64,000 nt of DNA, taken from positions 832,001 to 896,000 of the forward strand of contig CM000434.1 in the NCBI GenBank assembly GCA_000165345.1. Direction: 5' to 3'. The position numbers and the translations under genes were made by a program. Numbering within the stretch: position 1 is the stretch's first letter; each line of letters opens with the position of its first letter. Under the pieces are notes generated by a model. The model was not told the origin of the DNA and ran no database searches. It was given only the letters and a program-made list of their open reading frames with translations. Of the stretch, positions 9,791 to 25,593 are shown piece after piece.

Positions 9791-10981
9791 TTAACAAATT
9801 ATCTTTAATACATCTTGAAGAGCTTTTGTATACTGGTTTAAGGCCTGGACAATGTCATCATCTGCAGCTTCTCTATTTTGGGATTCTTTTGCAATATCGT
9901 TTTTTATGTGAGCAATCTCCTCAAGTACGAAGTTTTGGAATTTATCTTGAGTCTTTTCAATCTTATCTTTGAGCTGGTTAAAACTATCATTTATTGAACT
10001 CAAAACCATTTCTTTATTATTAACTTCTCTCCCAATCTCCTCCTCTACATGATTCTCAAGCTCCTTCAAGAACAGTTTCATTTGCTCCTCCTTTTCTTCT
10101 GCTATATTATATTCTCTCTCAGCAATTGACTTGGCATTCATTATTTCATTCACAAGACTTTGGTGCTTATGTTCGAATTCCTCAATTATTTGTGATTTTT
10201 CGCTCACCATCTCTTTCTCAATTACAGATAACCTTTCGTCCAAACTCTTGCAAGCTATAGAAAGCTGGTCCAATTTTCCAGAAAACACATCCTCTAATCT
10301 TTGTTGTATTGAAGACATTTGTTCCTCAAAATTTCTCTTCATGTTTGATTGGATTTCATTTCTTTGTTGGTTCTCAGCTTCTATGGCCTTCTTTAACTTC
10401 ATTGTATTCTCCTTTAATACTTGGAGCCTATTCTCCTCATATTCCCTTTTTTGGCGAGTATCATTTCTTAATTGTTTCTCTAACCCAAGTAATTGGCCTT
10501 GAATTTGTCCAAGCTTTTGTTTTGTTGATAGGGGAAGAGACGAATTACCGATTAAAGATGTAGGAGAATGAATAAGCCCGCTAGTACTTGTTTCTGCTAC
10601 AGTTATTGGACTCAAACTTGTTGTAGCAATTGATGTATTATTTGTTGAATTTAAATTACTAATGGTACCTCCTAATTGTTGAGAAAATAAAGCACTGAGA
10701 GACCCATTCTTTCTACCAAGTGAATTTTTTAAATTTGTCTGGTTCTGTTTTATGTTTCTACTTGATAAACTTAATTGCAAATGCTTTGGTGATTGTGAAG
10801 TTCCTCCTGTTTGGCTGTTAAATCCTGAAAGATTAAGATTCTCATTACCCACAACAACTTCATCAAGGTTTGTTGTAATATCCAAATTGGTCTTTATTTC
10901 GTTTACTGGTGCTACAATTCCTCCTGTTGATATTGTTAAAGACGACTTATTAATCAAATCCATTATTTCTTCTTTTAACAT
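9791..10981 (-). CDS. SF-assemblin (striated fibre assemblin) family coiled-coil protein
   Basis: 396-aa ORF. The C-terminal 250 aa are heptad-rich and end in ADDDIVQALNQYTKALQDVLKII. This closely matches the SF-assemblin C-terminal signature recalled from algal SFA (EDDEIVQAINDYTKALQEGLKLV). Confidence 0.75.
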   Translation of the reverse strand: MLKEEIMDLINKSSLTISTGGIVAPVNEIKTNLDITTNLDEVVVGNENLNLSGFNSQTGGTSQSPKHLQLSLSSRNIKQNQTNLKNSLGRKNGSLSALFSQQLGGTISNLNSTNNTSIATTSLSPITVAETSTSGLIHSPTSLIGNSSLPLSTKQKLGQIQGQLLGLEKQLRNDTRQKREYEENRLQVLKENTMKLKKAIEAENQQRNEIQSNMKRNFEEQMSSIQQRLEDVFSGKLDQLSIACKSLDERLSVIEKEMVSEKSQIIEEFEHKHQSLVNEIMNAKSIAEREYNIAEEKEEQMKLFLKELENHVEEEIGREVNNKEMVLSSINDSFNQLKDKIEKTQDKFQNFVLEEIAHIKNDIAKESQNREAADDDIVQALNQYTKALQDVLKIIC

Positions 10982-11716: not shown

Positions 11717-12989
11717 TTACTTTTTTAAGAGGCATACACAAGATATCATAAAGATCAGTAATGCAATGGTGCATGTAATGGCTAGAATCATCTTGCTATC
11801 AAAGATGTTTCTTTTTTGTTCTGCTGCAATCATTCCATTCAAATCAATATATCCTTTATTATGGAGTCTGGAATAGTCCTCCTCACTATCTAAAGGAGAA
11901 AAGCTTTCAGAGTAGTCGTGTTTTAGTTCATTCCTCCTTTTTTCTTTGCTATTAACTCTTCTAATATTCTTTTTAGTAGTATTTGACTTACTGTCACTCC
12001 TCTCTTCACTGGAATCATCATCCAAGTTCTTATTTCCATCTTCATAATCATTTGTTTCAACACTTTGCAGCACTTCCAACTCTGGAATATGAGGAACTGG
12101 AGGAGGCGGTGGTAATTCCTATAGACTAAGGTTATTCATTTCCATAAGATTACTTATTTTCTATTAACTTACCGATAAATGAGCTTGAGAAGTTATTCTA
12201 TATATTTCTTTAAGTCTAGTTGTACATGTTGTACATCTAATTTCCTCTGAGAGGTCTACTGGTCTTTCATCACTATAATTCTTTTCATCTAGAAGAAATC
12301 TTATTTGGTTGCTTAGATGTTTCCATAGCAAATCTATTAGAATCACTGACTCTGCTCTAACTGCTAAGTGGACAACATTTTCTTTAGAAGAATCTCTTGC
12401 ATGAAGCAAATGTTGGATTCCATAGATTTTTCTGTTAATCAGTTCTTTGGTTGCATAAAAAAACCCATTTCTGATTATTGCCGTCAATAATGTGTCAATT
12501 TTCTGAGTTAAAGTTTAAGTTAAGTTAATTAATTTGAGATATTTTCTCGCTAATAACTTACTTTTACTGTACATGTATAAAATAATGTACCTATAAACTG
12601 AGTTGGGATTTCCTGCATTATATTATCCATACTTTCAATTGCAGATCTTGCCCTATCCTCTAAATCAGTCTCATGCTTGGGGTTCTCAAGACAATCTATC
12701 AGCTCAAAGTATCCAACTACTGAAGGTGGAGTTTCTTGCATTGTCTGGCTAAGATAGTTGGCTATATCATAACCTAAGAAAAATAATGAGTAATAAGGAT
12801 TTATAATGTTTTTACATTGTAAAACTTACAAGAACTTCTCAAACTTGTATTAATTTCTTTAAAAACCTCTCCCTTTTTATCTTCAGGAAAACTCTGAATT
12901 AACCCTAGAAATAAAGTATTAAATAGAATCAAACAAAATAGATAATACTTATAATGGATATAAGGAAAGATGAAGATTTGTCTCCTCAT
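11717..12989 (-). CDS. Signal-peptide / ankyrin-like / C-terminal TM protein, 4 exons (367 aa); paralogue of the 13474-15486 gene
   Basis: Exons are 12989-12830, 12773-12562, 12502-12173 and 12118-11717 (160+212+330+402=1104 nt, in frame). All three introns (56, 59 and 54 nt) start GTAAGT and end AG. The N-terminus MRRQIFIFPYIHYKYYLFCLILFNTLFLGLIQS is signal-like. The block DSSKENVVHLAVRAESVILIDLLWKHL...LLDEKNYSDERPVDL...RLKEIYRIT aligns with the neighbouring gene. The C-terminal TM segment is ILAITCTIALLIFMISCVCLL. Confidence 0.7.
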
Positions 12990-13222
12990 CTTTGTCGACT
13001 CTTCCTCTTATTATACCAAATATAGTATTACACAAATTAAGATTTGTTAGATTTCATAAATACATCAAACTTAAACTTTCTTTTAAAAATAAAATTTATT
13101 TAGAATTACCAAAAAAAAATTCAGACACACATAATTTTTTAAAAAAAAGATTTTCTTCATTATATTTAAACCAATATTTTTGAAGTTGCACACACACAAA
13201 TTTTTTTAATCAGAATTGAAAA

Positions 13223-13230
13223 GGCGGGAA
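13223..13230. promoter_or_regulatory. E2F-type site GGCGGGAA
   Basis: Exact GGCGGGAA, 234 bp upstream of the minus-strand ATG at 12989. Confidence 0.4.
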
Positions 13231-13473
13231 GATGCACTTTCATGTTCAGGTACCGAAAGAATAATATTTGATTATAAAGGGGAGAGAGAAAAAAATAGAA
13301 GATAGAAATAATTAGTAAAATCTGGTGGTTATAATATTAATAATAAAAGCTTAAACTTAATTTAAATAATACTTAAATAATTGAGTGGTTTAATATTAAT
13401 TTTCTCTAATCATTTTCTCTGTTTTGACTTAATAGATGATCCCAAATATTTTTTTTTATTGGAAATGGGTAAC

Positions 13474-15486
13474 TTAAACTTTAGTTGCAAACCAAATGAG
13501 TAAAAGAACCACAGTGAAGACAATACAGAAGATGATAATTGACCAGAAAAGAACTTTTTCAAGGAAGCTTTTTGGTTTTGTACTTTGCTCATCCTCGCCT
13601 TTATCAGACTCCTGAGCTTTTTTATCATCAACTTCACTTTGTTCTTCATGAGAAGCTTTCTTTTCAATGTTGTTTTCACTATTACTTTCATTAGCCTCAT
13701 CTAAAATTTCCCCTTGTATGTCTTGAAGCTCAATGGCATGATGGTGATGATTATGACGGTGGTGATCATCATCATGTTCAAATTTAATAACTTCGTCCTC
13801 GAGAATACTTTCAGAAAGTTCAACAGGATTATGAGGCTGGATTTTCTGGTGTTTATGTGCAGATAAGAGTAACTCCTTTCTATCATTATATTCCTTTCTT
13901 TTAGCACGAAGATTCTTTTGAACAGATTCTTTGTTTAATTCCTCTAAGGCATAATTATCCATAATTCGACTAACTTCCTTTCCTTTTTCAATAGCTGTAT
14001 TAACTACTTCTTCATAATTTGAACTCATTTTTAAAACAGGCTTACAGAACAGTGCAGCAGTTTCTGTCATAATTTTCTGTTTTCTCTTCTCCTCCATTAC
14101 AGCTTCAGGATCAAGCTTCTTAACAAAGTTAGACATAGTCCTGTATGTAGTTTTAAGTCTTCTAATAATACTAGGGCGTCTTTCATCAACAGCAACATCG
14201 AGTGGAGTCTGGTTGGAGTTATTTTTCTCCTCTAAAGCAATCTTAATCTCAACAGGATCTTTAATTAATCTTAAAACAAAGTCAACAACTTGTAAACTGT
14301 TAGACATTGCTGCAAGATGCAAAGGATTATTACCAGCAGAATCATAATAATGACCATATTTAACACATCCCCACATTTTATGAGCAATTGGATGAAGTAG
14401 AGATGAAAGATATCCATATTCTATCAATTTCTGGTAAACTGATCTCCCATGATCTTTATCAGCTTCGCAAACATACAAAGCTAAGGCCTCTTGAGGATTG
14501 ATCCCTTCTGCAGCAGGATCCTTAAGAACGTCAAAGGCTGCAGTAATAGTCTTTTCAGCTTGAATATTTGTCATAGACTTTAGAGCCGTAATTTCACCGA
14601 ATATTATTTTAAAAGCTGCCTGAGATGAGGTACCAATTAAATCTTTATTCCACTCAAACTTTTCTATAACATCAGAACATGTTGGAGTTGGCAAATACTT
14701 TGATGATTTGGGTTCTTCGCCATCATCTATGCTTCTTTTTCTTCCAAATTGTGTCTGCAATGGCCTGGTTTGTGGCTCACTGGTAAAAGATCTTGTTGGC
14801 TGTACTACGCCTAACAATACATCAAGAGTTGCTGGTGCAACATGGCCAATAGCATTTCCAGAAATTCCATCCTTAATAGAATCTGAAGCCTTTTGTACAT
14901 TTGGATCTTCAGTAGGTAATACATCTTTGACTATATCATCATCATCATCCTTTGAACTTTCAACTTGATTTTGGCCTGATAAGGCTGGAACTATTGACTC
15001 CTCTGGAGTGACCTCGGATCTTTTTGAGCTTTCTTTATCACTTAAAACAAAGTCTCCTGATAAAGATGCTCCTCCGCCCTCCTCTTCATTTTGAATCTGG
15101 ACATCTTGTTTTTGTTCTGTTTGGCTATTCAATTGCTGGCTTTCACTCTGATTTATTGGAATCTCCTCACTATTTTTTTCCGATAATTTTGAGCCTTCCT
15201 TCATCTCAGATTCTGAAGCTTCTCCCTCAGAACTTAATTCGCCAGAACCTTCATCATCATCATCAGCGTAGGTGCTTTGAACAGAACCTTCATTTTTTGT
15301 AAAACCTTTATCATCAGGCTTACTTAAATCTGAAGCTGATGCTGAATCCTCAGCTTTGCTACCTTCAGTTTCTTCATATGAAGACTCAGAACTTGATTGG
15401 TTTACAACATCAGTTGCCAACATACCATTCTGTGCCAGCTTTAAGAGCACGATACATAAAAATAATATGATGTATTGTATTCTCAT
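13474..15486 (-). CDS. Signal-peptide / acidic low-complexity / ankyrin-like / His-rich / C-terminal TM protein (670 aa)
   Basis: Single ORF. The N-terminus MRIQYIILFLCIVLLKLAQNG is signal-like. The first third is rich in Asp, Glu and Ser. An ANK-like repeat reads DSAGNNPLHLAAMSNSLQVVDFVLRLI...EEKNNSNQTPLDVAV. There is an HDDDHHRHNHHHH tract. The terminal TM segment is VLFWSIIIFCIVFTVVLLLIWF. Confidence 0.75.
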   Translation of the reverse strand: MRIQYIILFLCIVLLKLAQNGMLATDVVNQSSSESSYEETEGSKAEDSASASDLSKPDDKGFTKNEGSVQSTYADDDDEGSGELSSEGEASESEMKEGSKLSEKNSEEIPINQSESQQLNSQTEQKQDVQIQNEEEGGGASLSGDFVLSDKESSKRSEVTPEESIVPALSGQNQVESSKDDDDDIVKDVLPTEDPNVQKASDSIKDGISGNAIGHVAPATLDVLLGVVQPTRSFTSEPQTRPLQTQFGRKRSIDDGEEPKSSKYLPTPTCSDVIEKFEWNKDLIGTSSQAAFKIIFGEITALKSMTNIQAEKTITAAFDVLKDPAAEGINPQEALALYVCEADKDHGRSVYQKLIEYGYLSSLLHPIAHKMWGCVKYGHYYDSAGNNPLHLAAMSNSLQVVDFVLRLIKDPVEIKIALEEKNNSNQTPLDVAVDERRPSIIRRLKTTYRTMSNFVKKLDPEAVMEEKRKQKIMTETAALFCKPVLKMSSNYEEVVNTAIEKGKEVSRIMDNYALEELNKESVQKNLRAKRKEYNDRKELLLSAHKHQKIQPHNPVELSESILEDEVIKFEHDDDHHRHNHHHHAIELQDIQGEILDEANESNSENNIEKKASHEEQSEVDDKKAQESDKGEDEQSTKPKSFLEKVLFWSIIIFCIVFTVVLLLIWFATKV

Positions 15487-16644: not shown

Positions 16645-18372
16645 ATGAAGATTTTTACGGAAAAACTGGCTGTATTTATTGCCGTCTTGGTAATATTAAT
16701 TTCGAATATCTCATGCAATAAAGAAATTGAAATCCCTGAAGATGTTACAAAATTGAATGATGACAACTTTGAAGAATTCATTGATGGAAATAATCTTGTA
16801 CTAGTATTATTTTATGATTCTTCCACTACTTCAAAAAATATAATCCATGGTCTTGGATATGTTTACTCAAACGTAGTAATGTCAAAAGGAACAGGAAAAA
16901 TTGCTGTTTTAAATTGTGAGGAATCTTCAATTCAAAAGAAATTTGAAATTCACCATCCTCCAAAGCTGCTATTCTTTTTTGGAAGTATAAACAAATTTGA
17001 GGCATATCCAAGCCATCTAACTGGTTTGGAAAGAGAATCAATGATTTCGATTATCCTTGCAAAAGAAAATGCTCTCTTCATTGAACATGATGCCAGAGAT
17101 AGTGAATCATTGGAAAAGGCTATGATAGAGTTTGACTTGGAAACAAAAGTTCGCTCCTCCAATCTCCCTGTTATTGTTTATTATGGTAAACCAGGTACTA
17201 AGAGAACTGATGTCGTAAAAAACACACTCGAAAAGTTAAGACTAACTGGAGTTTCCGTTAAAGCATTCATTATTTATGTTAAATACAAGGCCGATATTGG
17301 ATTACATATTTATAGATTGCCTGATTCAGATAAGCATGACTCTATGAATATTCAGCCAAAAGAACTTTATATTGCAAAGAAAAAGATCTTGGGATTATTA
17401 GAGTGGAACAAAGATATTTTATCTGTCTTTATTGAAGCTTGCATAAGGCCATATGTCTCTTTTAAAGGTAATGAAATTATGTATGTACACGAAAGTTCTA
17501 ACTCTTTAATAGCTTTCCTTAAGGGAAGCAACACTCTAGATCGGTATGGATCTAGCAATATTCAGTACTTAGATCATGATTCAATGGAATCTTTGAGAGC
17601 TTTTGCAAAGGCTAACTTTTTCCCAGAAGATCCAGATAAGGATTTAATGATTGGGCTTGTATTACCAGGATTAGAACAGGAGGTAGAAAACTTTACTGGT
17701 TTTCGAAGGGATGCTCATGTGAATGATGGAACCTTCCTCTTGAAACTTCGACAATCCAAATTTGAGCTTGGGAACTCCGGGAAGTCTGATAAATTCCTGC
17801 TTACTGAAGGGGAAATTAAAAAACATGGATTTGAATATTTACTTTCTCAGGCTAAGAATAGAAAATTACCCATTTTTTATAAAAGTAAGAGAATAATGAA
17901 ACAGCAAAAGGTCTCTGCTAGTGTTGAACAATATTTCACAACCCCATATCATTTTCTTGAGCTAAATCCTTCTTCCATCAGAGAGCTAATCCAAGACCCA
18001 AATAATGCACTGATAGTCCTTTACTATTCTGAAATGTGCTCAGGGTGCATGGATCTCCTTCCAATTTGGAACTCGATCTCTTCAAAAATTGCTTCAAAAT
18101 TTGGAAAAGATTCCAAATTCCGTGTTTTTGTCTCCGCTTTCGATGTAGAGTTTAATGACAATCCAATTGATATGCAAATTGAGAAAATTCCTTTAGTATA
18201 CTATTTCCCATTTGGAGAAGATAAAGTTTCCAAGATGTTCTTATATGATGAGGAAATAACCTCTAAAACTGTTACTACATTTATAACTGATAGAGTTCTA
18301 GAGGTTTCTGAAGATAATGATCAAGCTGAGCAAAATATTAGTCCGGATTCTCAAATCAGGGATGAGCTTTAA
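16645..18372 (+). CDS. ER-resident thioredoxin-fold protein (PDI-like), C-terminal RDEL
   Basis: The track start at 16627 is a TTG, and the first ATG is at 16645 (MKIFTEKLAVFIAVLVILISNISC, signal-like). The N-terminal Trx-like segment VTKLNDDNFEEFIDGNNLVLVLFYD has no CXXC. The C-terminal Trx segment ALIVLYYSEMCSGCMDLLPIWN carries CSGC. The protein ends QIRDEL, a KDEL-type ER retrieval signal. Confidence 0.75.
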   Translation: MKIFTEKLAVFIAVLVILISNISCNKEIEIPEDVTKLNDDNFEEFIDGNNLVLVLFYDSSTTSKNIIHGLGYVYSNVVMSKGTGKIAVLNCEESSIQKKFEIHHPPKLLFFFGSINKFEAYPSHLTGLERESMISIILAKENALFIEHDARDSESLEKAMIEFDLETKVRSSNLPVIVYYGKPGTKRTDVVKNTLEKLRLTGVSVKAFIIYVKYKADIGLHIYRLPDSDKHDSMNIQPKELYIAKKKILGLLEWNKDILSVFIEACIRPYVSFKGNEIMYVHESSNSLIAFLKGSNTLDRYGSSNIQYLDHDSMESLRAFAKANFFPEDPDKDLMIGLVLPGLEQEVENFTGFRRDAHVNDGTFLLKLRQSKFELGNSGKSDKFLLTEGEIKKHGFEYLLSQAKNRKLPIFYKSKRIMKQQKVSASVEQYFTTPYHFLELNPSSIRELIQDPNNALIVLYYSEMCSGCMDLLPIWNSISSKIASKFGKDSKFRVFVSAFDVEFNDNPIDMQIEKIPLVYYFPFGEDKVSKMFLYDEEITSKTVTTFITDRVLEVSEDNDQAEQNISPDSQIRDEL

Positions 18373-18600: not shown

Positions 18601-21600
18601 TTAAGTTGTAAACTTGAAAAAGGTTAATATTGCAAGTGGTGTAAAAATATAAAGACAAAACCCTGACAATTTTTCTGTTATATCAAATCCACAAATCTTA
18701 AGCAAAGGTGGTGTTGAGTTAATTACAAGTAGAACCTTCTCTATCACAATATAAATCCCTGCTCCTGGTGGAGTTCTATGTAAAATATTTTGCAACCAAG
18801 AATGAGTTCTTACTGATGTTCTGTTTATTTGATAAAGTAGCCTTATTACATATGAAGAAAAAATAAACATAACTATTCCCATTGTTAGAAAAATTGTCTC
18901 ACAATTTGAATAAGTATTGATCATATTATTTTCTGAAGATGATGGAATTGTTCCTTGATAAGATAAATATGAAGTTGCATATTGAGGAATTGTTAACATA
19001 AATGAAAGAGCTGAAGTTTTAATGTTTGATATACTTGCTAGATTTGAATATGTTAATGTTGAATGTGAAATTACTGGATTATTATCATTGTTATTCATAC
19101 CAGAACGTATTGATCTCATCAAATTTATATTATTTATAAAATTGTTGGTACCTTCTCCTGGAATATTAGTATAATAATGATCATTTAAATCTATCATTGA
19201 TGATATATCATTATATTTATTCATATTATAATTATCCTCATTATTTGAGTTTAAAATATAATCAATATTTGAAATTGAATCCATAAATTGATTTTTATTT
19301 GTTGAAAAAGATCCTGTCTTAAAAAAGTTATTCATAAAATGATCCCCTATTGATCTTGAATTTAACTCATTTAACAAATTTGTACTAATTCCTCCACCTA
19401 TAATATTTGGAGATGTAGTTAATATTCTTGAAATATCTTTATCAAAAGAACCTCTTACAATATTTGTTGAACCAGAAGCTGATAATCCATTCAAATTTTG
19501 ATTTGAACTTGGATTCTTACTCAACATTGTAGAAGATGAAAGATCTGAAACTCGATTATTATATATTCTATTCTTTTTGTTATATATTGCAACAAGCATA
19601 ATTTTCCCAATACAAAAGAAAATTAAAGTATTTATAGATACAGAAGCATTTAAGAAAGATGTCCAAAGCTTTGTATTCTTATAAAGGATATGTTGTATTG
19701 CACTTCTCCAATAACTAACAATTTGAATAAATTCTTGAACATTTGAATATTTAAATTGGGTTGGAATATGTTGAACTAATACAATACAAAGTCTTTTTCT
19801 TTGTTTCACAAAGAATAATAAAATAATCAAACCTTTCAAAATCTCAAAAATTAAGTTGGAAATCCAATATGTAAATATACATTCAATAATATAAACTGTT
19901 ATTGGAGATTTATTATAAAGGAAATATAAAGTTGAATCCCTTATTAAATATGAATTACTTTTAAATAATGTTATTGATATATTTGATGACATTGCCACAA
20001 TACAACTTATTATCTTGCAAGTAATAACAACATTAAAGTATTCATATGGAGTATTATAACTCACTTCATCCACTAATCGATATAATGGTTTATGAATCTG
20101 ATTATTAGTTACAACATTTCCAATATTTGTTCTAATATTATCACAACTTAAATTATCTTCTGCACTTGAAATAATGTTCCTAATTTTTCTTAATCTAATA
20201 GATCTTTTAACTTGGTTATTACTTTTTATGAAATTATTAAAGTTATCATTAATACTTGGAATTTTTTTCTGCCGTTTAGAATTAATATAAATACTTGTTT
20301 TACTTGATATGTTAGTATCACTTTGATATATTTGTTGTGTATTTTTTATTCTATTACAATAATTAGATAAAACTGACTTAAAACGTTTGTTTGCTGTGTT
20401 ACTTCGGGTTATTCTAATAGCTGGACCACTCAAAGTTGAACAAAATTTATCATTTACTAACCCAAAAGATGAAGATTTTGAAGAATTAATGTCAAAAGCA
20501 ATATTAATATCATTTGATTCAATTTTTGAATTATAATTTTGAATCCAAGGTGTTCTCAAATATTTATCTCCTGAGCTAGTATCATTAGAAATGGTTGAAG
20601 TAATTGATAATAAATCAGGCAAACAAATATATTCTCCTCCTGTTGAAGATTTTTTTACTTTAACTGAACTTTTCTTCATTACTTTCACTTTATTTACTTT
20701 AGAATGATTTGGATTTAATTTTATCCTATTGATATATTTATCATCATCATTTTTTTTTGTTATAGATTCTAAATCTGAACCAAGTGAATTTGTATCTTCA
20801 TTTGATTCACTCGAACTCAAATTCTCATCATCCGCAAAGTTATTATTTTCAAAATATTTTGAAGATGATGATGAATATGAGGTAAAACGAGAATAAGATC
20901 TCGATCCAAAAGTTGTCACATTTGAAGAAGAAACTCCCAATAAATTAAACCTTGCAGTATTTGGTGAAGAAAAATTAGATGAAGAATCTGGTTGAGAAGT
21001 TACTGAACAACCATTTACTTCATTTGAATAAGAATGACTGGCCTTTGTGTTAATGTAGTAATTACTAGTTGAAAAACTTGATCCTGATTGACTATTATTT
21101 AATTCTGATATAAAACTCCCGCCAAATCTATGATGCACTTGTGCATGTAACTCCGGTATTAAATCCATATGAGACTTATTTCTAGAACTTAATTTTTGAC
21201 TTGATAATTTTTGTGGAATCAACATATTTGGTGAAATTTCAATTTGATTGTCTAAGATTGGAACTTCACTATTAATTTTATTATTAGAATTCTTGTCAAT
21301 ATCACTTTTGTCGCAATCAAAGTCATAGTCATACTCATTATTATTATTATGACTGAAATAGTTGTTTTTAATTAAAGTACTTGAATTCATTGCACAGTTT
21401 AAAAGGTTTGAATATATATTTCTGATATTTTTTCTGTTTTCTACAGATTTCTTATAATAGTAATAATTATATAAGTAATATTCTTTAGAAAATCCACAAA
21501 AGTATTTGTTACAATAGTTGGAAACAAATTCATGTGTGTAATATATTCTAACACTTGAACAGAGTGTGGCTGTGATAATGACTCCAATTAAGAACCATAT

Positions 21601-24600
21601 ATAGTCATATTCACTAATTAGGAAAAGTATCGTGAATAAGTAAATTAATGAAATAATTTGTATGAAGAAGAATAAGTATTTGATAATAGACTGAAGATTT
21701 GTATTTTTTTGAGAGTTTTTTTGCTTAAAATAATTCATTGGAGCATTCAACAAATTACTCTTTGTAGTTTTAATAGTATTCATAGACTTTTTATCCTTAA
21801 TATTTTCTTTTAAAGAGTTATCCTTATAAATATACCAAGGTGATGTGAAAATTAAAGACAATGCCAACAATACTGAATCAATGACTTTTCCTGATGCAGA
21901 TACTGGGAAAATTTCTGCAAAATCTCTTAATCTAAATACAGAATATGGCAATGTATTTAAAAAAGCTTTTCTCGTATATTTGAGAATATTTTTTGTTAAT
22001 AACTGAATTGATGATTTTGACTTAAAATTTGAATTTTGGCTTTCATTAGTTACACCCGATATTCCTCTTTTTTTTTCTTTTTTATTTTGTCTGATTAACC
22101 CACTTTTTGTTTTTTTATTTGAATTTATTTTCTTTTTAATCTTTTCCTTACTCCAATCGTTTATCATGTTTTTGATATAAAAGACTTTGAGATATGATAT
22201 AATTGCCCAAAGTAATATGTAAATTATAGATGTCAATAGAATTGCAGAAGAAACTCGAATAGCTGATGGAATTATATGATTATGAGGACTTGTATTTAAT
22301 AAAGTAATGAATTTTGCTTTTTTAGCCAATAGTTCTTCAAACGTAGTATATGAACTTGATTTATCACAGATTGGATGTTTATTCATCATTCCATAAAGTT
22401 TACTTCTACTTATTAAGGGACCTAAATCAGTAACATTAGCTTTAGCTGGTATTTCTGGTATGTAACCAAGATGAATTTTTTGATAATCACTATTTAGACT
22501 TGGAATATAACATTCAGTTTTTTCACCAATACATTGAGAATCTATCAGCAATGTACTGGATGGATCAAATTCATGTTCATGATCTTGACTAAAAATCATG
22601 GGTACCCATAAGACCTCTTTTATTTGCATAATATTACAAATGTTTGGTAGCTCTATTAAGCAGTTACCCAAATATGTATTTATTCCCATTTTTTTATCCA
22701 TCTTTTTATATAATGCATCAATTCCAGTTTCATGTGTAGGTGTTGTTTCCATATTATCTTGACCAAAATAGTCAAAGTCGTCCAATATTCCTTGTATCTT
22801 CTCATTTAAATTGTTGCTTTGAGTATTTTCAATAGCATCATTAATATTTAGATTCTCTAATCTGTTTTTAAGAGTATGAAGTCCTTGAATCTTTGAAAAA
22901 TCCACGTTCTTTCCTAAGAAGAGTTCAGCTTCATTATTTCTTGGATAATTACAGGTGGAGTTCTGTAAAATTTTGATAATATGTTCAAAACTACTGGAAC
23001 GTACAAATTTGGTCATTTCTGGAGACAATAATTGTTTTACTAGATTGATAGCTTCTCCTAAAGAATCAGTTTTTCGATATTCTGTTTTAGTCTTTGATAA
23101 ATTAACTAATTCATCATTTTTGTCAGTATAATTTTGGAAAAGTTTAGTCTTTTGAGAAAAAATGGTGTCAAAGTTACTAAAAATAGATTCATATTCTCCG
23201 CTAGTATCGTGTTGAGAAATATGATCATCTTCTTCAAAATAACCTCTTCTCATTTCACTTCTCACAAAATTCATTTGTTCTTCAAGTTCATTCTGCTCGT
23301 CCAGCTCATTCTGTTTTTCCACTTCCTTATTGTTTTCAGTAAAATCAAATTGATACTGCAAAAAGAAATCGCGACTAAATTCTGGATTAGAGTAAATACT
23401 ACCTTCAACGGAACTACTGCTCTTTACTTTCTCATTAAAAGTAGTATTTTCTAGCTTTACTGAAACATTTACATCTCTTCCATTTGAATCAGAAGCTGTC
23501 AAACTTTCATTAATATACTGGAAGATTTTATTGTGTTCAATACTATTAATTTTAGCCAAATTATCTAGCTCAGTCTCATCTGAATCAGTCTCTGAATTAG
23601 AATCAATTTCACGAATTTCTCCTTCAATACCATTCGAAAGAATAATAATTCTAACCAAAAGTGTAACGGGAATAGCCATCAAATCATCTAAATTTGGAAA
23701 TTCTGGAGGTAATGAACCCAATAATCTGGAAGCAACTTGGATACTCACTTCTGATGAGTAATCAAGACTTGAAAGTACTTCTGATAGTGTCTGGACTCTT
23801 CCTAAAAGAATATTTCGAATAATATCATCCTTTCCTAAAATTGTTGCAGTAATAAGAGCATGCTGTAATGCATGAATACACCAAAAGCTTTGTAACATTG
23901 CCTCCCTTAATATTGACTGTAATACCACTTTTGACGTATAATTTTTATTTAATAAAAGTAGTAATGATAAGATCGAAATTGAATTATCATACTCTGAAGT
24001 ACCTATAATAGGTATCGATCGTGGTGTAGGAATTGAGTACCTTTTTAAAGGCTTACAAAAACATCTCACGACAAATGAACTGACGTGGAAGTCTATGGCT
24101 GGTGATGAGAGATATTCAACAATTTTATGTTCACCTGTAATATCGTTTCCTGAGCTAACCGCAAGTTCGTACCAAAGAGTTGTATTGGTTTTTGGATTTT
24201 GAAACATAAGCATTTCCTCGAGAATTTGGAACTTAGGCAACTTATTGTTATTGTTTCCAGAAAATTTGAACTCATTAATTTGATCAAACTCTTCAAACAT
24301 TTTAAAAGATTTTTTACTGCTAATAGTTGGTTTATATAAAAGTGAATTTTCTTTATTAAGTTCTCTGCTCTCTTTTAACATCAATTCCTCCTGATAATTG
24401 ATTTTGTAAATAAGGTGGCCAATAGGAAGGTTCCCATATATATCAGGTTCATGAAGTTCGCAAAGTTCAAAATCCAATACCCCAGTATTAGTCTGAAACT
24501 TGTAGAAACTAACCAAAATCCTAATCAGATCTTCATCTCCAAGATGAGCCATCCACCAAAGCAAGTTCCGGCCTTCATTATCCCTAACAATGCATATATC

Positions 24601-25593
24601 CTTGTTATATGCCTTGATTTCTGGGAGTAATAGAGAAAAGATGACTTTTTTATCAAATCCTCTTTTAATTGCAGTAATAATACGAAGAATTTTATCCTTT
24701 GCATTGGCCAACTTTCTGTTAATTTCGGAAAGAGTTGAATTTAAAGGTAACTTTTCATTACTGGAAATATACTCGTTATCAATATTATTCCTCACAATAT
24801 ACTTGGAAAAGGAGGAATGTTCAATTAATTTATTTAATAACTTTTTGTTTCCTGACTCAATAATAAACGAAATCGCATCTTTTCCTTCAAGGGTTAAATC
24901 AGTCATAGATGCTCCGTAGTCCAAAAGCAACTCCAAGAATTCCTCGGTATTTGTTGACATTCCGTCTTTTAATAAGAAATAAAATGGGGTTAGCCCATTT
25001 CTGTCTGGAATATTTGGGTTTGATCCACATTTTAACAGAAAATGAGTCATCCTCAAATTCTTTGAGATTACACTGTAAAATAATGGAGACAAATCCCTAT
25101 TATCTGAGTAATCAATATTGGCTCCGTTAAGTAATAATAATGCCACTAATGGTAAGTTGCTTCTTTGAACAGCATTAATCAATGGACTGATTCCATTCGC
25201 ACCAACTATGTTTACATCTGCTCCATGTTCTATCAAATATAACGAGATAGTATAGGAAATATATCCATTTTGTCTAGTTGAAATGAGTAAGGCAGTTTCT
25301 CCTGTTGAATTAGAAATTGAATTAATATTATTAACGCATAACCTATCAAGCATAGCAGTGATTGCCTCAAGATCCTGTAGCCTAATACTTTCATGGAATT
25401 CATCCACTAAATCAAGACATTCTTCTGTGTAAGCAATATCTTTTTGGCATTCACAGTTATTTTTCTGGATTACATTTACCAATGAATCTGAAATACTGTT
25501 TAATGGGCAACCAATAGGAAATATTTGTTTGGTTCCTATGCAAAACAATATCTTAAACGTTAAAAGAAAAATTGAACATAGATAAATCTTCAT
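18601..25593 (-). CDS. Giant (2330 aa) signal-peptide, ankyrin-repeat, multi-pass membrane protein
   Basis: Single uninterrupted ORF. The N-terminus MKIYLCSIFLLTFKILFCIG is signal-like. It has at least 4 canonical ANK repeats (TGETALLISTRQNG...LIEHGADVN, NGISPLINAVQRSNLPLVALLLLNGANID, DLSPLFYSVISKNLRMTHFLLKCGSNPN, NGLTPFYFLLKDG). There are at least 8 strongly hydrophobic 20-aa segments in the C-terminal 1250 aa, separated by Asn/Ser-rich low-complexity tracts. Confidence 0.8.
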   Translation of the reverse strand: MKIYLCSIFLLTFKILFCIGTKQIFPIGCPLNSISDSLVNVIQKNNCECQKDIAYTEECLDLVDEFHESIRLQDLEAITAMLDRLCVNNINSISNSTGETALLISTRQNGYISYTISLYLIEHGADVNIVGANGISPLINAVQRSNLPLVALLLLNGANIDYSDNRDLSPLFYSVISKNLRMTHFLLKCGSNPNIPDRNGLTPFYFLLKDGMSTNTEEFLELLLDYGASMTDLTLEGKDAISFIIESGNKKLLNKLIEHSSFSKYIVRNNIDNEYISSNEKLPLNSTLSEINRKLANAKDKILRIITAIKRGFDKKVIFSLLLPEIKAYNKDICIVRDNEGRNLLWWMAHLGDEDLIRILVSFYKFQTNTGVLDFELCELHEPDIYGNLPIGHLIYKINYQEELMLKESRELNKENSLLYKPTISSKKSFKMFEEFDQINEFKFSGNNNNKLPKFQILEEMLMFQNPKTNTTLWYELAVSSGNDITGEHKIVEYLSSPAIDFHVSSFVVRCFCKPLKRYSIPTPRSIPIIGTSEYDNSISILSLLLLLNKNYTSKVVLQSILREAMLQSFWCIHALQHALITATILGKDDIIRNILLGRVQTLSEVLSSLDYSSEVSIQVASRLLGSLPPEFPNLDDLMAIPVTLLVRIIILSNGIEGEIREIDSNSETDSDETELDNLAKINSIEHNKIFQYINESLTASDSNGRDVNVSVKLENTTFNEKVKSSSSVEGSIYSNPEFSRDFFLQYQFDFTENNKEVEKQNELDEQNELEEQMNFVRSEMRRGYFEEDDHISQHDTSGEYESIFSNFDTIFSQKTKLFQNYTDKNDELVNLSKTKTEYRKTDSLGEAINLVKQLLSPEMTKFVRSSSFEHIIKILQNSTCNYPRNNEAELFLGKNVDFSKIQGLHTLKNRLENLNINDAIENTQSNNLNEKIQGILDDFDYFGQDNMETTPTHETGIDALYKKMDKKMGINTYLGNCLIELPNICNIMQIKEVLWVPMIFSQDHEHEFDPSSTLLIDSQCIGEKTECYIPSLNSDYQKIHLGYIPEIPAKANVTDLGPLISRSKLYGMMNKHPICDKSSSYTTFEELLAKKAKFITLLNTSPHNHIIPSAIRVSSAILLTSIIYILLWAIISYLKVFYIKNMINDWSKEKIKKKINSNKKTKSGLIRQNKKEKKRGISGVTNESQNSNFKSKSSIQLLTKNILKYTRKAFLNTLPYSVFRLRDFAEIFPVSASGKVIDSVLLALSLIFTSPWYIYKDNSLKENIKDKKSMNTIKTTKSNLLNAPMNYFKQKNSQKNTNLQSIIKYLFFFIQIISLIYLFTILFLISEYDYIWFLIGVIITATLCSSVRIYYTHEFVSNYCNKYFCGFSKEYYLYNYYYYKKSVENRKNIRNIYSNLLNCAMNSSTLIKNNYFSHNNNNEYDYDFDCDKSDIDKNSNNKINSEVPILDNQIEISPNMLIPQKLSSQKLSSRNKSHMDLIPELHAQVHHRFGGSFISELNNSQSGSSFSTSNYYINTKASHSYSNEVNGCSVTSQPDSSSNFSSPNTARFNLLGVSSSNVTTFGSRSYSRFTSYSSSSSKYFENNNFADDENLSSSESNEDTNSLGSDLESITKKNDDDKYINRIKLNPNHSKVNKVKVMKKSSVKVKKSSTGGEYICLPDLLSITSTISNDTSSGDKYLRTPWIQNYNSKIESNDINIAFDINSSKSSSFGLVNDKFCSTLSGPAIRITRSNTANKRFKSVLSNYCNRIKNTQQIYQSDTNISSKTSIYINSKRQKKIPSINDNFNNFIKSNNQVKRSIRLRKIRNIISSAEDNLSCDNIRTNIGNVVTNNQIHKPLYRLVDEVSYNTPYEYFNVVITCKIISCIVAMSSNISITLFKSNSYLIRDSTLYFLYNKSPITVYIIECIFTYWISNLIFEILKGLIILLFFVKQRKRLCIVLVQHIPTQFKYSNVQEFIQIVSYWRSAIQHILYKNTKLWTSFLNASVSINTLIFFCIGKIMLVAIYNKKNRIYNNRVSDLSSSTMLSKNPSSNQNLNGLSASGSTNIVRGSFDKDISRILTTSPNIIGGGISTNLLNELNSRSIGDHFMNNFFKTGSFSTNKNQFMDSISNIDYILNSNNEDNYNMNKYNDISSMIDLNDHYYTNIPGEGTNNFINNINLMRSIRSGMNNNDNNPVISHSTLTYSNLASISNIKTSALSFMLTIPQYATSYLSYQGTIPSSSENNMINTYSNCETIFLTMGIVMFIFSSYVIRLLYQINRTSVRTHSWLQNILHRTPPGAGIYIVIEKVLLVINSTPPLLKICGFDITEKLSGFCLYIFTPLAILTFFKFTT

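What the first reader, a model, noticed from the sequence alone, without database searches (positions are those of the whole stretch)
11717..15486. Tandem paralogues placing an ankyrin-like domain between a signal peptide and a C-terminal TM anchor
The two adjacent minus-strand genes, 11717-12989 (4 exons) and 13474-15486 (intronless), share an architecture. Each has a hydrophobic N-terminus, a variable region, a conserved block and a terminal TM helix.

The conserved block aligns by eye:
- DSAGNNPLHLAAMSNSLQVVDFVLRLIKDPVEIKIALEEKNNSNQTPLDVAVDERRPSIIRRLKTTYRTM
- DSSKENVVHLAVRAESVILIDLLWKHLSNQIRFLLDEKNYSDERPVDLSEEIRCTTCTTRLKEIYRIT

ANK repeats are normally cytosolic. A signal peptide plus a type-I anchor would put them in the secretory lumen or on the parasite surface. 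One copy has three introns and the other has none, which hints at retroposition or intron loss after duplication.
Basis: partly seen in the sequence, partly recalled or inferred. Interest (0 to 1): 0.55.

Follow-up and report, generated by a model that had tools for sequence, protein, structure and literature searches.

The report
Known rhoptry protein ROP6 and paralogue
The two genes are real relatives in Cryptosporidium parvum: the larger is the already described rhoptry protein ROP6 (cgd6_3630), and the smaller (cgd6_3625) is an unstudied, anciently diverged member of the same signal-peptide / ankyrin / membrane-anchor family, which also includes ROP5.

Summary
The window is C. parvum chromosome 6. 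The 670-aa intronless ORF is identical to XP_627704.1, which has been annotated since the first genome as [quoted passage not shown]. By position it is cgd6_3630, that is ROP6. [quoted passage not shown]

The four-exon model gives 367 aa, identical to the curated cgd6_3625 protein, which is annotated "hypothetical". The shared block is significant (BLASTP 3e-11; hhalign 96%). On profile search it is two ankyrin repeats.

New here:
- An exhaustive HMM search shows a family of about 200-aa domains: two conserved Cys, helices and 2 ANK repeats, set between an N-terminal hydrophobic leader and a C-terminal TM.
- The family also contains ROP5 (cgd1_950) and proteins from the blastogregarine Siedleckia.
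- ROP6 groups with ROP5, and cgd6_3625 groups with Siedleckia, so the tandem pair is ancient.
- Retroposition is not supported.

The invariant TM argues for a true anchor rather than a GPI signal. The likely role is a membrane-anchored ANK module delivered through the rhoptry to the host interface. The novelty is modest.

The parts
13474..15486 (-). Gene B: intronless CDS of 670 aa plus stop. It is C. parvum cgd6_3630 / ROP6 (protein identical to XP_627704.1 / EAK89980.1).
   Evidence: ORF. Zero differences from P0012. Cluster names. Chromosome position and order relative to 6g3625. The ROP6 = cgd6_3630 assignment comes.
15424..15486 (-). B residues 1-21, MRIQYIILFLCIVLLKLAQNG: a signal-peptide-like leader with basic residue R2, a 13-residue hydrophobic core and a polar end.
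   Evidence: A leader is present in all 10 orthologues. The alternative start M22, used in some 649-aa annotations, is not conserved.
14893..15423 (-). B residues 22-198: an acidic, Ser-rich, low-complexity region. It is poorly conserved and holds most of the C. parvum / C. hominis differences.
   Evidence: (pLDDT 25-37).
14122..14694 (-). B residues 265-455: the family core domain. It runs from conserved Cys270 and Cys340 through helices to two ANK repeats.
   Evidence: family HMM 261 bits over 256-478.
14143..14343 (-). B residues 382-448: two ankyrin repeats (DSAGNNPLHLAAMSNSLQVVDFVLRL ... NNSNQTPLDVAVDERRPSIIRRLK).
   Evidence: Pfam Ank_3 25.1 bits against a 22.3 cut-off. AF2 pLDDT 70-89 for this region. 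Foldseek top hits are DARPins. hmmsearch against PDB.
13486..13554 (-). B residues 645-667, VLFWSIIIFCIVFTVVLLLIWFA: the C-terminal TM helix, followed only by TKV.
   Evidence: The segment LEKVLFWSII.FC.VFT..LLLIWFATK is almost invariant from C. parvum to C. muris.
11717..12989 (-). Gene A: a 4-exon gene of 367 aa, cgd6_3625 (CPHLJ_6g3625 / CPATCC_0015210), annotated hypothetical. Exons are 12989-12830, 12773-12562, 12502-12173 and 12118-11717.
12774..12829 (-). Intron 1 of A (56 nt, GTAAGT...TAG).
12503..12561 (-). Intron 2 of A (59 nt, GTAAGT...CAG). It lies inside the shared domain, after codon 124. An intron falls at the matching place in C. serpentis and C. bovis.
12119..12172 (-). Intron 3 of A (54 nt, GTAAGT...TAG), just after the shared domain. 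The position is conserved in C. serpentis and C. bovis.
12894..12989 (-). A residues 1-32: a basic N-terminus (MRR) and a hydrophobic stretch (YYLFCLILFNTLFLGLI). It is leader-like.
   Evidence: A hydrophobic leader is present in all 6 orthologues although its sequence is not conserved.
12179..12830 (-). A residues 54-232: the family core domain, with Cys54 and Cys121 (spans introns 1 and 2).
12194..12397 (-). A residues 160-227: two degenerate ANK repeats (RDSSKENVVHLAVRAESVILIDLLWK ... NYSDERPVDLSEEIRCTTCTTRLK).
   Evidence: Homology to B. The family profile, built with A as first sequence, matches DARPins over positions 121-188. On its own A has no Pfam hit; 2 of 6 orthologues give Ank_2 at best E=0.016.
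12068..12118 (-). A residues 235-251, ELPPPPPVPHIPELEVL: a polyproline / IPELEV motif. It is invariant or nearly so in the genus and recognisable in Siedleckia (VPPPRRTKVKIPELAVV).
11726..11791 (-). A residues 344-365, MILAITCTIALLIFMISCVCLL: the C-terminal TM helix, followed only by KK.

Best explanation
These are two anciently diverged members of one apicomplexan family of single-pass (type I) secretory membrane proteins. The family is seen in Cryptosporidium and in at least one gregarine-grade lineage.

Architecture: an N-terminal signal peptide; variable acidic linkers; a domain of about 200 aa (two conserved Cys, helices, then two ankyrin repeats); and a TM helix at the very C-terminus.

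Shown here or taken from the literature:
- Gene B is cgd6_3630 = ROP6.
- A third C. parvum member is cgd1_950 = ROP5.

Inferred mechanism:
1. The signal peptide takes the ANK domain into the ER lumen.
2. The C-terminal helix stops transfer and anchors the protein in the rhoptry membrane, with the ANK module in the rhoptry lumen.
3. On discharge the rhoptry lumen becomes continuous with the host side, and its membrane persists as the interface / feeder-organelle membrane.
4. The anchored ANK protein-binding module is then displayed at the host-parasite junction. There it could tether host or parasite-secreted partners.

Gene A (cgd6_3625) is predicted to travel the same route. That prediction is untested.
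For: Identity of the genes
- The window is 100% identical in DNA to C. parvum chromosome 6 over 20 kb, and B is identical to XP_627704.1.
- A carries the tag 6g3625. B lies at the next higher chromosome coordinate, at about 0.64 of chromosome length.
- cgd6_3630 = ROP6 and cgd1_950 = ROP5 are listed as rhoptry bulb proteins. ROP5 and ROP6 form a ring at the interface.

The family
- An exhaustive HMMER search with the A profile recovers the cgd1_950 cluster, Siedleckia nematoides proteins and five unnamed eukaryote-like proteins.
- ROP5 against B gives E=5e-23. ROP5 against A gives E=7e-9.
- The common domain has near-invariant Cys at two positions.

ANK repeats.

Signal-peptide-like leader
- It is present in every full-length member that starts with Met (A, B, ROP5, Siedleckia, P0040, P0045, P0046).
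- The hydrophobicity is conserved while the sequence is not.

True TM anchor
- B's helix is almost invariant across the genus.
- ROP5 and P0044 have 11- and 26-residue tails after the helix.

Fate of the rhoptry membrane: it persists as the feeder-organelle membrane and a conduit into the host (PMC13419397; PMC13432881).

Purifying selection on the domain: there is only one C. parvum / C. hominis difference in B residues 199-455, against many in the linkers.
Against: - No signal-peptide, TM-topology or GPI predictor was available. Leader cleavage and orientation rest on heuristics.
- The primary ROP5/ROP6 localisation papers (Guerin 2021, 2023) could not be read. Only secondary citations were seen.
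- The mapping of B to cgd6_3630 is positional plus the neighbour's locus tag. It is not a direct tag look-up.
- A's AF2 model failed (pLDDT 39). B's model is confident only for residues about 380-470 and 490-545. The proposed disulfide and the overall domain fold are therefore unverified.
- Nothing is known about A's location. A is much more conserved than B and has gregarine relatives, so it may have a different, parasite-internal role.
- No binding partner is known.
Confidence: 0.62

Rival explanations
1. Tail-anchored topology. The C-terminal helix, within 3-11 residues of the end, is inserted post-translationally. The ANK domain then stays in the parasite cytosol on the outer face of the rhoptry, like ARO. 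It follows the rhoptry membrane to the interface ring without ever being lumenal.
For: - The TM lies at the extreme C-terminus in A, B, ROP5 and Siedleckia, which is the hallmark of tail-anchored proteins.
- Three deposited annotations start B at M22 (649 aa) and so lack the leader.
- ANK repeats are typically cytosolic.
- The cytosolic-face rhoptry marker CpARO also ends at the interface.
Against: - Every full-length family member has a hydrophobic leader right after the initiator Met.
- In B the leader is conserved in all 10 species while M22 is not.
- There are two near-invariant Cys in the domain, and the acidic low-complexity linkers are typical of secreted apicomplexan proteins.
- Annotators' predictors called a signal peptide (name).
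Confidence: 0.13
2. GPI-anchored surface proteins. The C-terminal hydrophobic stretch is a GPI-attachment signal that is removed, and the ANK domain sits on the parasite surface.
For: - A leader plus a hydrophobic stretch at the extreme C-terminus is the GPI precursor layout.
- The GenBank name leaves this open ('transmembrane domain or GPI anchor').
- Small residues precede the helix (KPKS in B, FDSK in A).
Against: - B's 23-residue helix and its flanks are almost invariant from C. parvum to C. muris. That is unexpected for a cleaved signal.
- Basic residues follow the helix (TKV, KK).
- The paralogue ROP5 and relative P0044 carry 11- and 26-residue polar tails.
- The reported location is the rhoptry and the interface ring, not the sporozoite surface.
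Confidence: 0.05
3. B arose by retroposition of a spliced A-like mRNA, which is the first reader's hint for the difference in intron content.
For: B and ROP5 have no introns, while A has three. Two of A's introns lie in or at the edge of the shared domain.
Against: - B lies 484 nt upstream of A on the same strand.
- The order big-ANK / Trx / B / A / SF-assemblin / WD40 is conserved in C. serpentis and C. bovis. A retrocopy would be expected at an unrelated site.
- A and B are not sisters (0 of 200 bootstraps).
- The split appears older than the genus, so any retrocopy hallmarks would have decayed.
- Cryptosporidium genomes are generally intron-poor, so plain intron loss is an adequate explanation (established knowledge).
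Confidence: 0.08
4. Gene A shares only the fold with ROP5/ROP6. It is a conserved housekeeping membrane protein of the parasite's own secretory system, for example in the ER, Golgi or rhoptry biogenesis, and is not delivered to the host interface.
For: - A's domain is 61-85% identical across the genus, with long invariant runs.
- A groups with Siedleckia rather than with the ROPs.
- A has its own conserved PPPPP..IPELEV motif, which B and ROP5 lack.
- A was not among the ROPs named in the reviews.
Against: - A has the same overall architecture as two validated rhoptry proteins.
- A was missing from the 2004 gene set (inferred from its intercalated number), so earlier screens may simply have missed it.
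Confidence: 0.3

Closest known systems
[quoted passage not shown]
   Same: - Gene B is ROP6 itself (sequence identical to XP_627704.1; positional mapping).
- Gene A shares with both the leader, the Cys-helical-2xANK domain and the C-terminal TM. BLASTP gives E=3e-11 to ROP6 and 7e-9 to ROP5.
   Different: - A is shorter (367 aa) and has three introns.
- A lacks the long acidic N-terminal linker and the post-ANK helical region of ROP6.
- A has a PPPPP..IPELEV motif of its own.
- A belongs to a different, older subfamily that includes a Siedleckia protein.
- A's localisation is unknown.
Canonical ankyrin-repeat proteins (Pfam Ank clan; DARPins as structural reference)
   Same: - Two consecutive repeats carry the G-x-x-P-L-H-L-A-A and x-T-P-L-D-x-A signatures.
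- They align to the last internal repeat plus the C-cap of DARPins.
   Different: - There are only two recognisable repeats.
- They are embedded in a larger helical domain with two conserved Cys.
- The inter-repeat loop is lengthened.
- The domain lies behind a signal peptide rather than in a cytosolic protein.
Secreted ANK effectors of intracellular pathogens (for example Legionella, Coxiella and Anaplasma Ank proteins). This comparison is from general knowledge and was not tested here.
   Same: The logic is the same: a eukaryote-type protein-binding repeat is exported by a pathogen so that it acts at or in the host cell.
   Different: Those effectors are soluble and are translocated by type IV secretion. 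Here the module is membrane-anchored and travels through a eukaryotic secretory organelle. There is no sequence relationship beyond the repeat itself.
Other Cryptosporidium secretory ANK proteins: cgd4_2420 (a Sushi + ANK rhoptry candidate) and the 2330-aa protein two genes upstream in this window
   Same: A signal-like N-terminus is combined with ANK repeats, which shows that lumenal ANK is recurrent in this parasite.
   Different: The 2330-aa neighbour does not match the family HMM. It has canonical ANK repeats at residues 72-195 and many hydrophobic segments.

Membership tests
Ankyrin repeat (Pfam Ank clan) | Sequence match to ANK profiles above the curated threshold | tested here: met
   - B: Ank_3 25.1 bits against a cut-off of 22.3. 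Ank_2 26.1 against 27.3 and Ank 21.0 against 21.1 fall just below.
- A alone has no hit. 2 of 6 A orthologues give Ank_2, best E=0.016.
- The family profile with A as reference hits 157-aa DARPins at E about 1e-13.
- The feature is therefore met for B and for the family. For A it is met only through the profile.
Ankyrin repeat (Pfam Ank clan) | Helix-turn-helix repeat fold stacked in tandem | tested here: inconclusive
   - The B model has pLDDT 70-89 over about 380-470, with paired short helices. Foldseek top 50 hits are ANK proteins or DARPins, but E is only 6e-4 to 1e-2 and RMSD is high because the rest of the model is poor.
- The A model is unusable (pLDDT 39).
C. parvum ROP5/ROP6 family (rhoptry bulb, then interface ring) | Sequence identity or homology to cgd6_3630 / cgd1_950 | tested here: met
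   - B is identical to XP_627704.1.
- A against B: E=3e-11.
- ROP5 against B: E=5e-23. ROP5 against A: E=7e-9.
- The family HMM scores 212-287 bits on all three.
C. parvum ROP5/ROP6 family (rhoptry bulb, then interface ring) | Localisation to the rhoptry and relocation to the interface | not testable with these tools
   For B and ROP5 this is taken from reviews citing Guerin et al. 2021 and 2023. There are no data for A.
Type I membrane protein (cleaved signal peptide + one TM) | N-terminal signal peptide (n-, h- and c-regions) | tested here: inconclusive
   - Basic residues are followed by a 13-17-residue hydrophobic core in all orthologues and paralogues.
- No SignalP-type predictor was available.
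- No clean -3/-1 cleavage site is evident by eye in B.
Type I membrane protein (cleaved signal peptide + one TM) | A single further TM helix, C-terminal to the ectodomain | tested here: met
   Apart from the leader there is only one hydrophobic window with Kyte-Doolittle >1.6, spanning 22-23 residues at the C-terminus.
GPI-anchored protein | A cleavable, weakly conserved C-terminal hydrophobic signal ending the protein, with an omega site | tested here: not met
   - The helix is almost invariant across the genus in B.
- It is followed by basic residues.
- Relatives have polar tails of 11 and 26 residues.
- No GPI predictor was run.
Tail-anchored protein | No N-terminal signal sequence; a single TM within about 30-40 residues of the C-terminus | tested here: not met
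   The TM position fits. However, a hydrophobic N-terminal leader is present in all members with complete N-termini.
Retrogene | Intronless copy of an intron-bearing parent at an unrelated locus, with poly(A) or target-site-duplication remnants | tested here: not met
   - B is intronless. However, it is adjacent to A, on the same strand, and syntenic across the genus.
- A is not its closest relative.
- The A-run 3' of B lies in a 24% GC spacer and is uninformative.

The most novel reading that the evidence does not exclude
cgd6_3625, ROP5 and ROP6 define a previously unnamed family of membrane-anchored ANK proteins shared by Cryptosporidium and gregarine-grade apicomplexans (Siedleckia). No relative was detected at E<=0.001 among the named coccidian or haemosporidian proteins in the representative library. 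Under this reading the family would be a structural component of the ring / feeder-type attachment interface that these epicellular parasites have in common, with the rhoptry-delivered ANK modules tethering host or parasite partners at the junction. The older, more conserved member, cgd6_3625, would be the ancestral core component.
Probability: 0.25. Interest if true: 0.55.

Novelty: new member of a known kind. Interest (0 to 1): 0.3.

Why it matters
How Cryptosporidium builds and holds its unusual epicellular interface is an open question. ROP5 and ROP6 are reported as the two rhoptry proteins that stay there as a ring. This work shows three things:
- ROP5 and ROP6 are paralogues with a membrane anchor.
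- A third, unstudied member (cgd6_3625) sits next to ROP6.
- Relatives exist in a blastogregarine.

Together these give a concrete, testable gene set for the interface: triple knock-outs, topology mapping and partner identification. The work also flags an annotation problem. Several public C. parvum and C. hominis gene models start ROP6 at Met22 and so lose the signal peptide.

The core facts about gene B are already in the databases and the literature, so the surprise value is limited.

Tried and rejected
- AlphaFold2 on A with its 6 orthologues gave an unusable model (pLDDT 39). No fold search was attempted on it.
- AF2 on B was confident only around the ANK and post-ANK helices. The Cys270-Cys340 disulfide idea could not be checked.
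- The A-family profile against PDB gave only a low-complexity match of the PPPP..IPELE motif to RAD21 (E=0.012) and NF-kB p100 ANK at E=0.18. I treated both as non-evidence.
- The third word-indexed protein search, with the family alignment, returned only A orthologues and added nothing.
- The primary ROP papers were not held.
- No supplementary tables were available to check hyperLOPIT or expression data for cgd6_3625.
- No paper mentions cgd6_3625.
- The SRA runs carrying the unnamed relatives could not be linked to organisms.
- I considered whether the 2330-aa ANK protein upstream belongs to the family. It does not match the family HMM.
- I considered the SFLE sequence before B's TM as a rhoptry-maturase (S-phi-x-E) site. 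The Ser is Asn in C. bovis and C. ryanae, so I left it as a note only.


Full report
**What is there**

The region is AT-rich eukaryotic DNA (GC 0.30-0.39 in genes, about 0.22 in spacers). ORF 13474-15486(-) encodes 670 aa without interruption.

Downstream on the same strand there are four ORF pieces. They are joined by three short introns with perfect GTAAGT donors and AG acceptors, at 12829-12774, 12561-12503 and 12172-12119. This is the only simple combination that restores one frame from ATG 12989 to the stop at 11717.

The resulting 367-aa protein is identical to deposited C. parvum proteins: QOY41248.1, CPATCC_0015210 and CPHLJ_6g3625. The window matches C. parvum chromosome 6 (CP141123.1) at 100% over 20 kb. 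The 670-aa protein is identical to XP_627704.1 / EAK89980.1.

**The shared block is real and is ankyrin-like**

- BLASTP aligns A118-229 with B337-452 at 28% identity, E=3e-11.
- Profiles of the two orthologue sets align at 95.9% probability.
- B passes the Pfam Ank_3 threshold.
- B's profile hits designed and natural ANK proteins in the PDB.
- The only confident part of B's AF2 model near this block (residues about 380-470, pLDDT 70-89) finds ANK proteins exclusively with Foldseek.
- A alone gives no Pfam hit. A profile of the whole family with A as reference matches 157-aa DARPins at about 1e-13. The match runs over the last internal repeat plus the C-cap, that is two repeats.

**Identity of the genes**

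A carries the locus tag 6g3625. It lies on the minus strand at about 841 kb of the 1.31-Mb chromosome, and B is at the next higher coordinate. B is therefore cgd6_3630.

GenBank calls B [quoted passage not shown].

Reviews list cgd6_3630 as ROP6, a validated rhoptry-bulb protein (PMC12688253, PMC13432881). [quoted passage not shown] I could not read the primary papers.

**A wider family**

I ran an exhaustive HMMER search of 1.8 billion representatives with the A-family profile. It returned A orthologues and nine weaker hits. Seven of the nine share the whole domain:

- a 481-aa C. parvum / hominis / meleagridis / tyzzeri protein tagged CHM_1g950, that is cgd1_950 = ROP5;
- a protein from the blastogregarine Siedleckia nematoides;
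- five unnamed proteins from SRA or IMG assemblies.

The other two hits (P0042, P0043) are repeat proteins that match only the repeat segment of the profile.

ROP5 aligns to B at E=5e-23 and to A at E=7e-9.

An alignment of the family defines a domain of about 200 aa:

- a near-invariant Cys (A C54, B C270, ROP5 C58);
- two or three helices;
- a second near-invariant Cys (A C121, B C340, ROP5 C128);
- a helical stretch with an invariant Gly;
- two ANK repeats.

All members with complete ends have an N-terminal hydrophobic leader. Most have a C-terminal TM.

**Age of the duplication and the introns**

The order big-ANK protein / thioredoxin-like / B / A / SF-assemblin / WD40 is the same in C. 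parvum, C. bovis and the gastric species C. serpentis. In each species B is intronless and A is interrupted, with introns at the positions matching C. parvum introns 2 and 3. ROP5 is also intronless.

In a rough NJ tree of the domain, B groups with ROP5 (70% bootstrap). A groups with Siedleckia (69%). A+B was never recovered (0 of 200).

The pair is therefore not a recent tandem duplication. The adjacent, same-strand, syntenic position argues against retroposition. Intron loss in the B/ROP5 lineage, or gain in A, cannot be resolved with these data.

**Topology**

No signal-peptide or GPI predictor was available, so this part rests on heuristics.

For a signal peptide:
- There are basic residues and then 13-17 hydrophobic residues at the very N-terminus in every orthologue and paralogue. 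The sequence diverges while the hydrophobicity is kept.
- In B the leader is conserved in ten species. Met22, used as the start in three deposited 649-aa models, is not conserved.

For a real anchor rather than a GPI signal:
- B's helix and flanks (LEKVLFWSII.FC.VFT..LLLIWFATK) are essentially invariant from C. parvum to C. muris.
- Basic residues end both proteins.
- ROP5 and one relative have polar tails after the helix.

A tail-anchored, cytosol-facing orientation remains the main rival. I put it at about 0.13.

**Likely mechanism (inferred)**

- The leader takes the domain into the secretory lumen and the C-terminal helix anchors it in the rhoptry membrane.
[quoted passage not shown] Its membrane then persists as the boundary that becomes the feeder organelle (PMC13419397; PMC13432881).
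- A type I rhoptry membrane protein would then present its lumenal ANK module at the host-parasite junction.
- This fits a further observation. Among the six ROPs described first, the two said to remain as an interface ring are the two shown here to be TM-anchored paralogues.
- ANK repeats in the lumen are then no paradox. They are a protein-binding module in transit to a host-facing position.
- For cgd6_3625 this is a prediction. It is more strongly conserved and has its own PPPPP..IPELEV motif, so a parasite-internal role is also possible (about 0.3).

**Novelty**

- Gene B and its architecture are already known.
- Three points were not found in any text I could search: that cgd6_3625 belongs with ROP5 and ROP6, that ROP5 and ROP6 are paralogues, and that the family reaches a gregarine. 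I could not check the primary papers.
- I rate this as a new member of a known kind, with modest interest.

Noticed in passing
window 18601-25593 (-): A 2330-aa ORF two genes upstream has a signal-like N-terminus (MKIYLCSIFLLTFKILFCIG). It has canonical ANK repeats at residues 72-195 (Ank_2 65.7 bits), many internal hydrophobic segments and a hydrophobic C-terminus. It is another secretory or membrane ANK protein, but it does not match the ROP5/ROP6/3625 family HMM. Orthologues occupy the same position in C. serpentis and C. bovis.
   Followed up: partly
window 15424-15486 (-), start of gene B: Public gene models disagree on the start of ROP6. The 670-aa form has the hydrophobic leader. The 649-aa form (WKS78478.1, KAL5368242.1, KAL3127716.1) starts at Met22 and lacks it. 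Cross-species conservation favours the 670-aa start, because Met22 is not conserved.
   Followed up: yes
window 12068-12118 (-), A residues 235-251: The motif ELPPPPPVPHIPELEVL is invariant or nearly so in Cryptosporidium A orthologues and recognisable in Siedleckia (VPPPRRTKVKIPELAVV). It gave a weak PDB match to a RAD21 linear segment ([20 protein letters not shown], E=0.012). It could be a proline-motif docking site, or the match could be chance.
   Followed up: no
window 13555-13566 (-), B residues 641-644: SFLE lies immediately before ROP6's TM helix. It resembles the S-phi-x-E maturation site of Toxoplasma rhoptry proproteins (from memory). Cleavage there would free the ectodomain from its anchor. 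The Ser is Asn in C. bovis and C. ryanae.
   Followed up: no
window 13723-13767 (-), B residues 574-588: There is a His-rich tract (DDDHHRHNHHHHAIE) in the membrane-proximal linker of ROP6. Its length varies between species and it is absent from the C. muris, C. serpentis, C. bovis and C. ryanae orthologues.
   Followed up: no
window 14893-15423 (-), B residues 22-198: Most C. parvum versus C. hominis / C. tyzzeri differences in ROP6, including an indel near residue 136, fall in the acidic N-terminal linker. The conserved block 199-455 has a single substitution (V431I).
   Followed up: partly
window 16645-18372 (+) and 9791-10981 (-): The flanking genes are a 575-aa thioredoxin / OST3-like protein with a signal-like N-terminus (the listed ORF starts at an upstream TTG) and a 396-aa SF-assemblin-family coiled-coil protein. 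Both are syntenic across the genus.
   Followed up: partly
L004 9315-13734 (C. serpentis): The spacer between the A orthologue and SF-assemblin is about 4.4 kb with no called gene in C. serpentis. It is about 0.7-1 kb in C. parvum and C. bovis. This may be an insertion or an unannotated gene.
   Followed up: no
gene A, older annotations: Earlier models of gene A are truncated (CAD98404.1, 262 aa), and ORF-only callers report 118-120-aa fragments. The gene number 3625 is intercalated, which suggests it was absent from the original 2004 gene set.
   Followed up: partly
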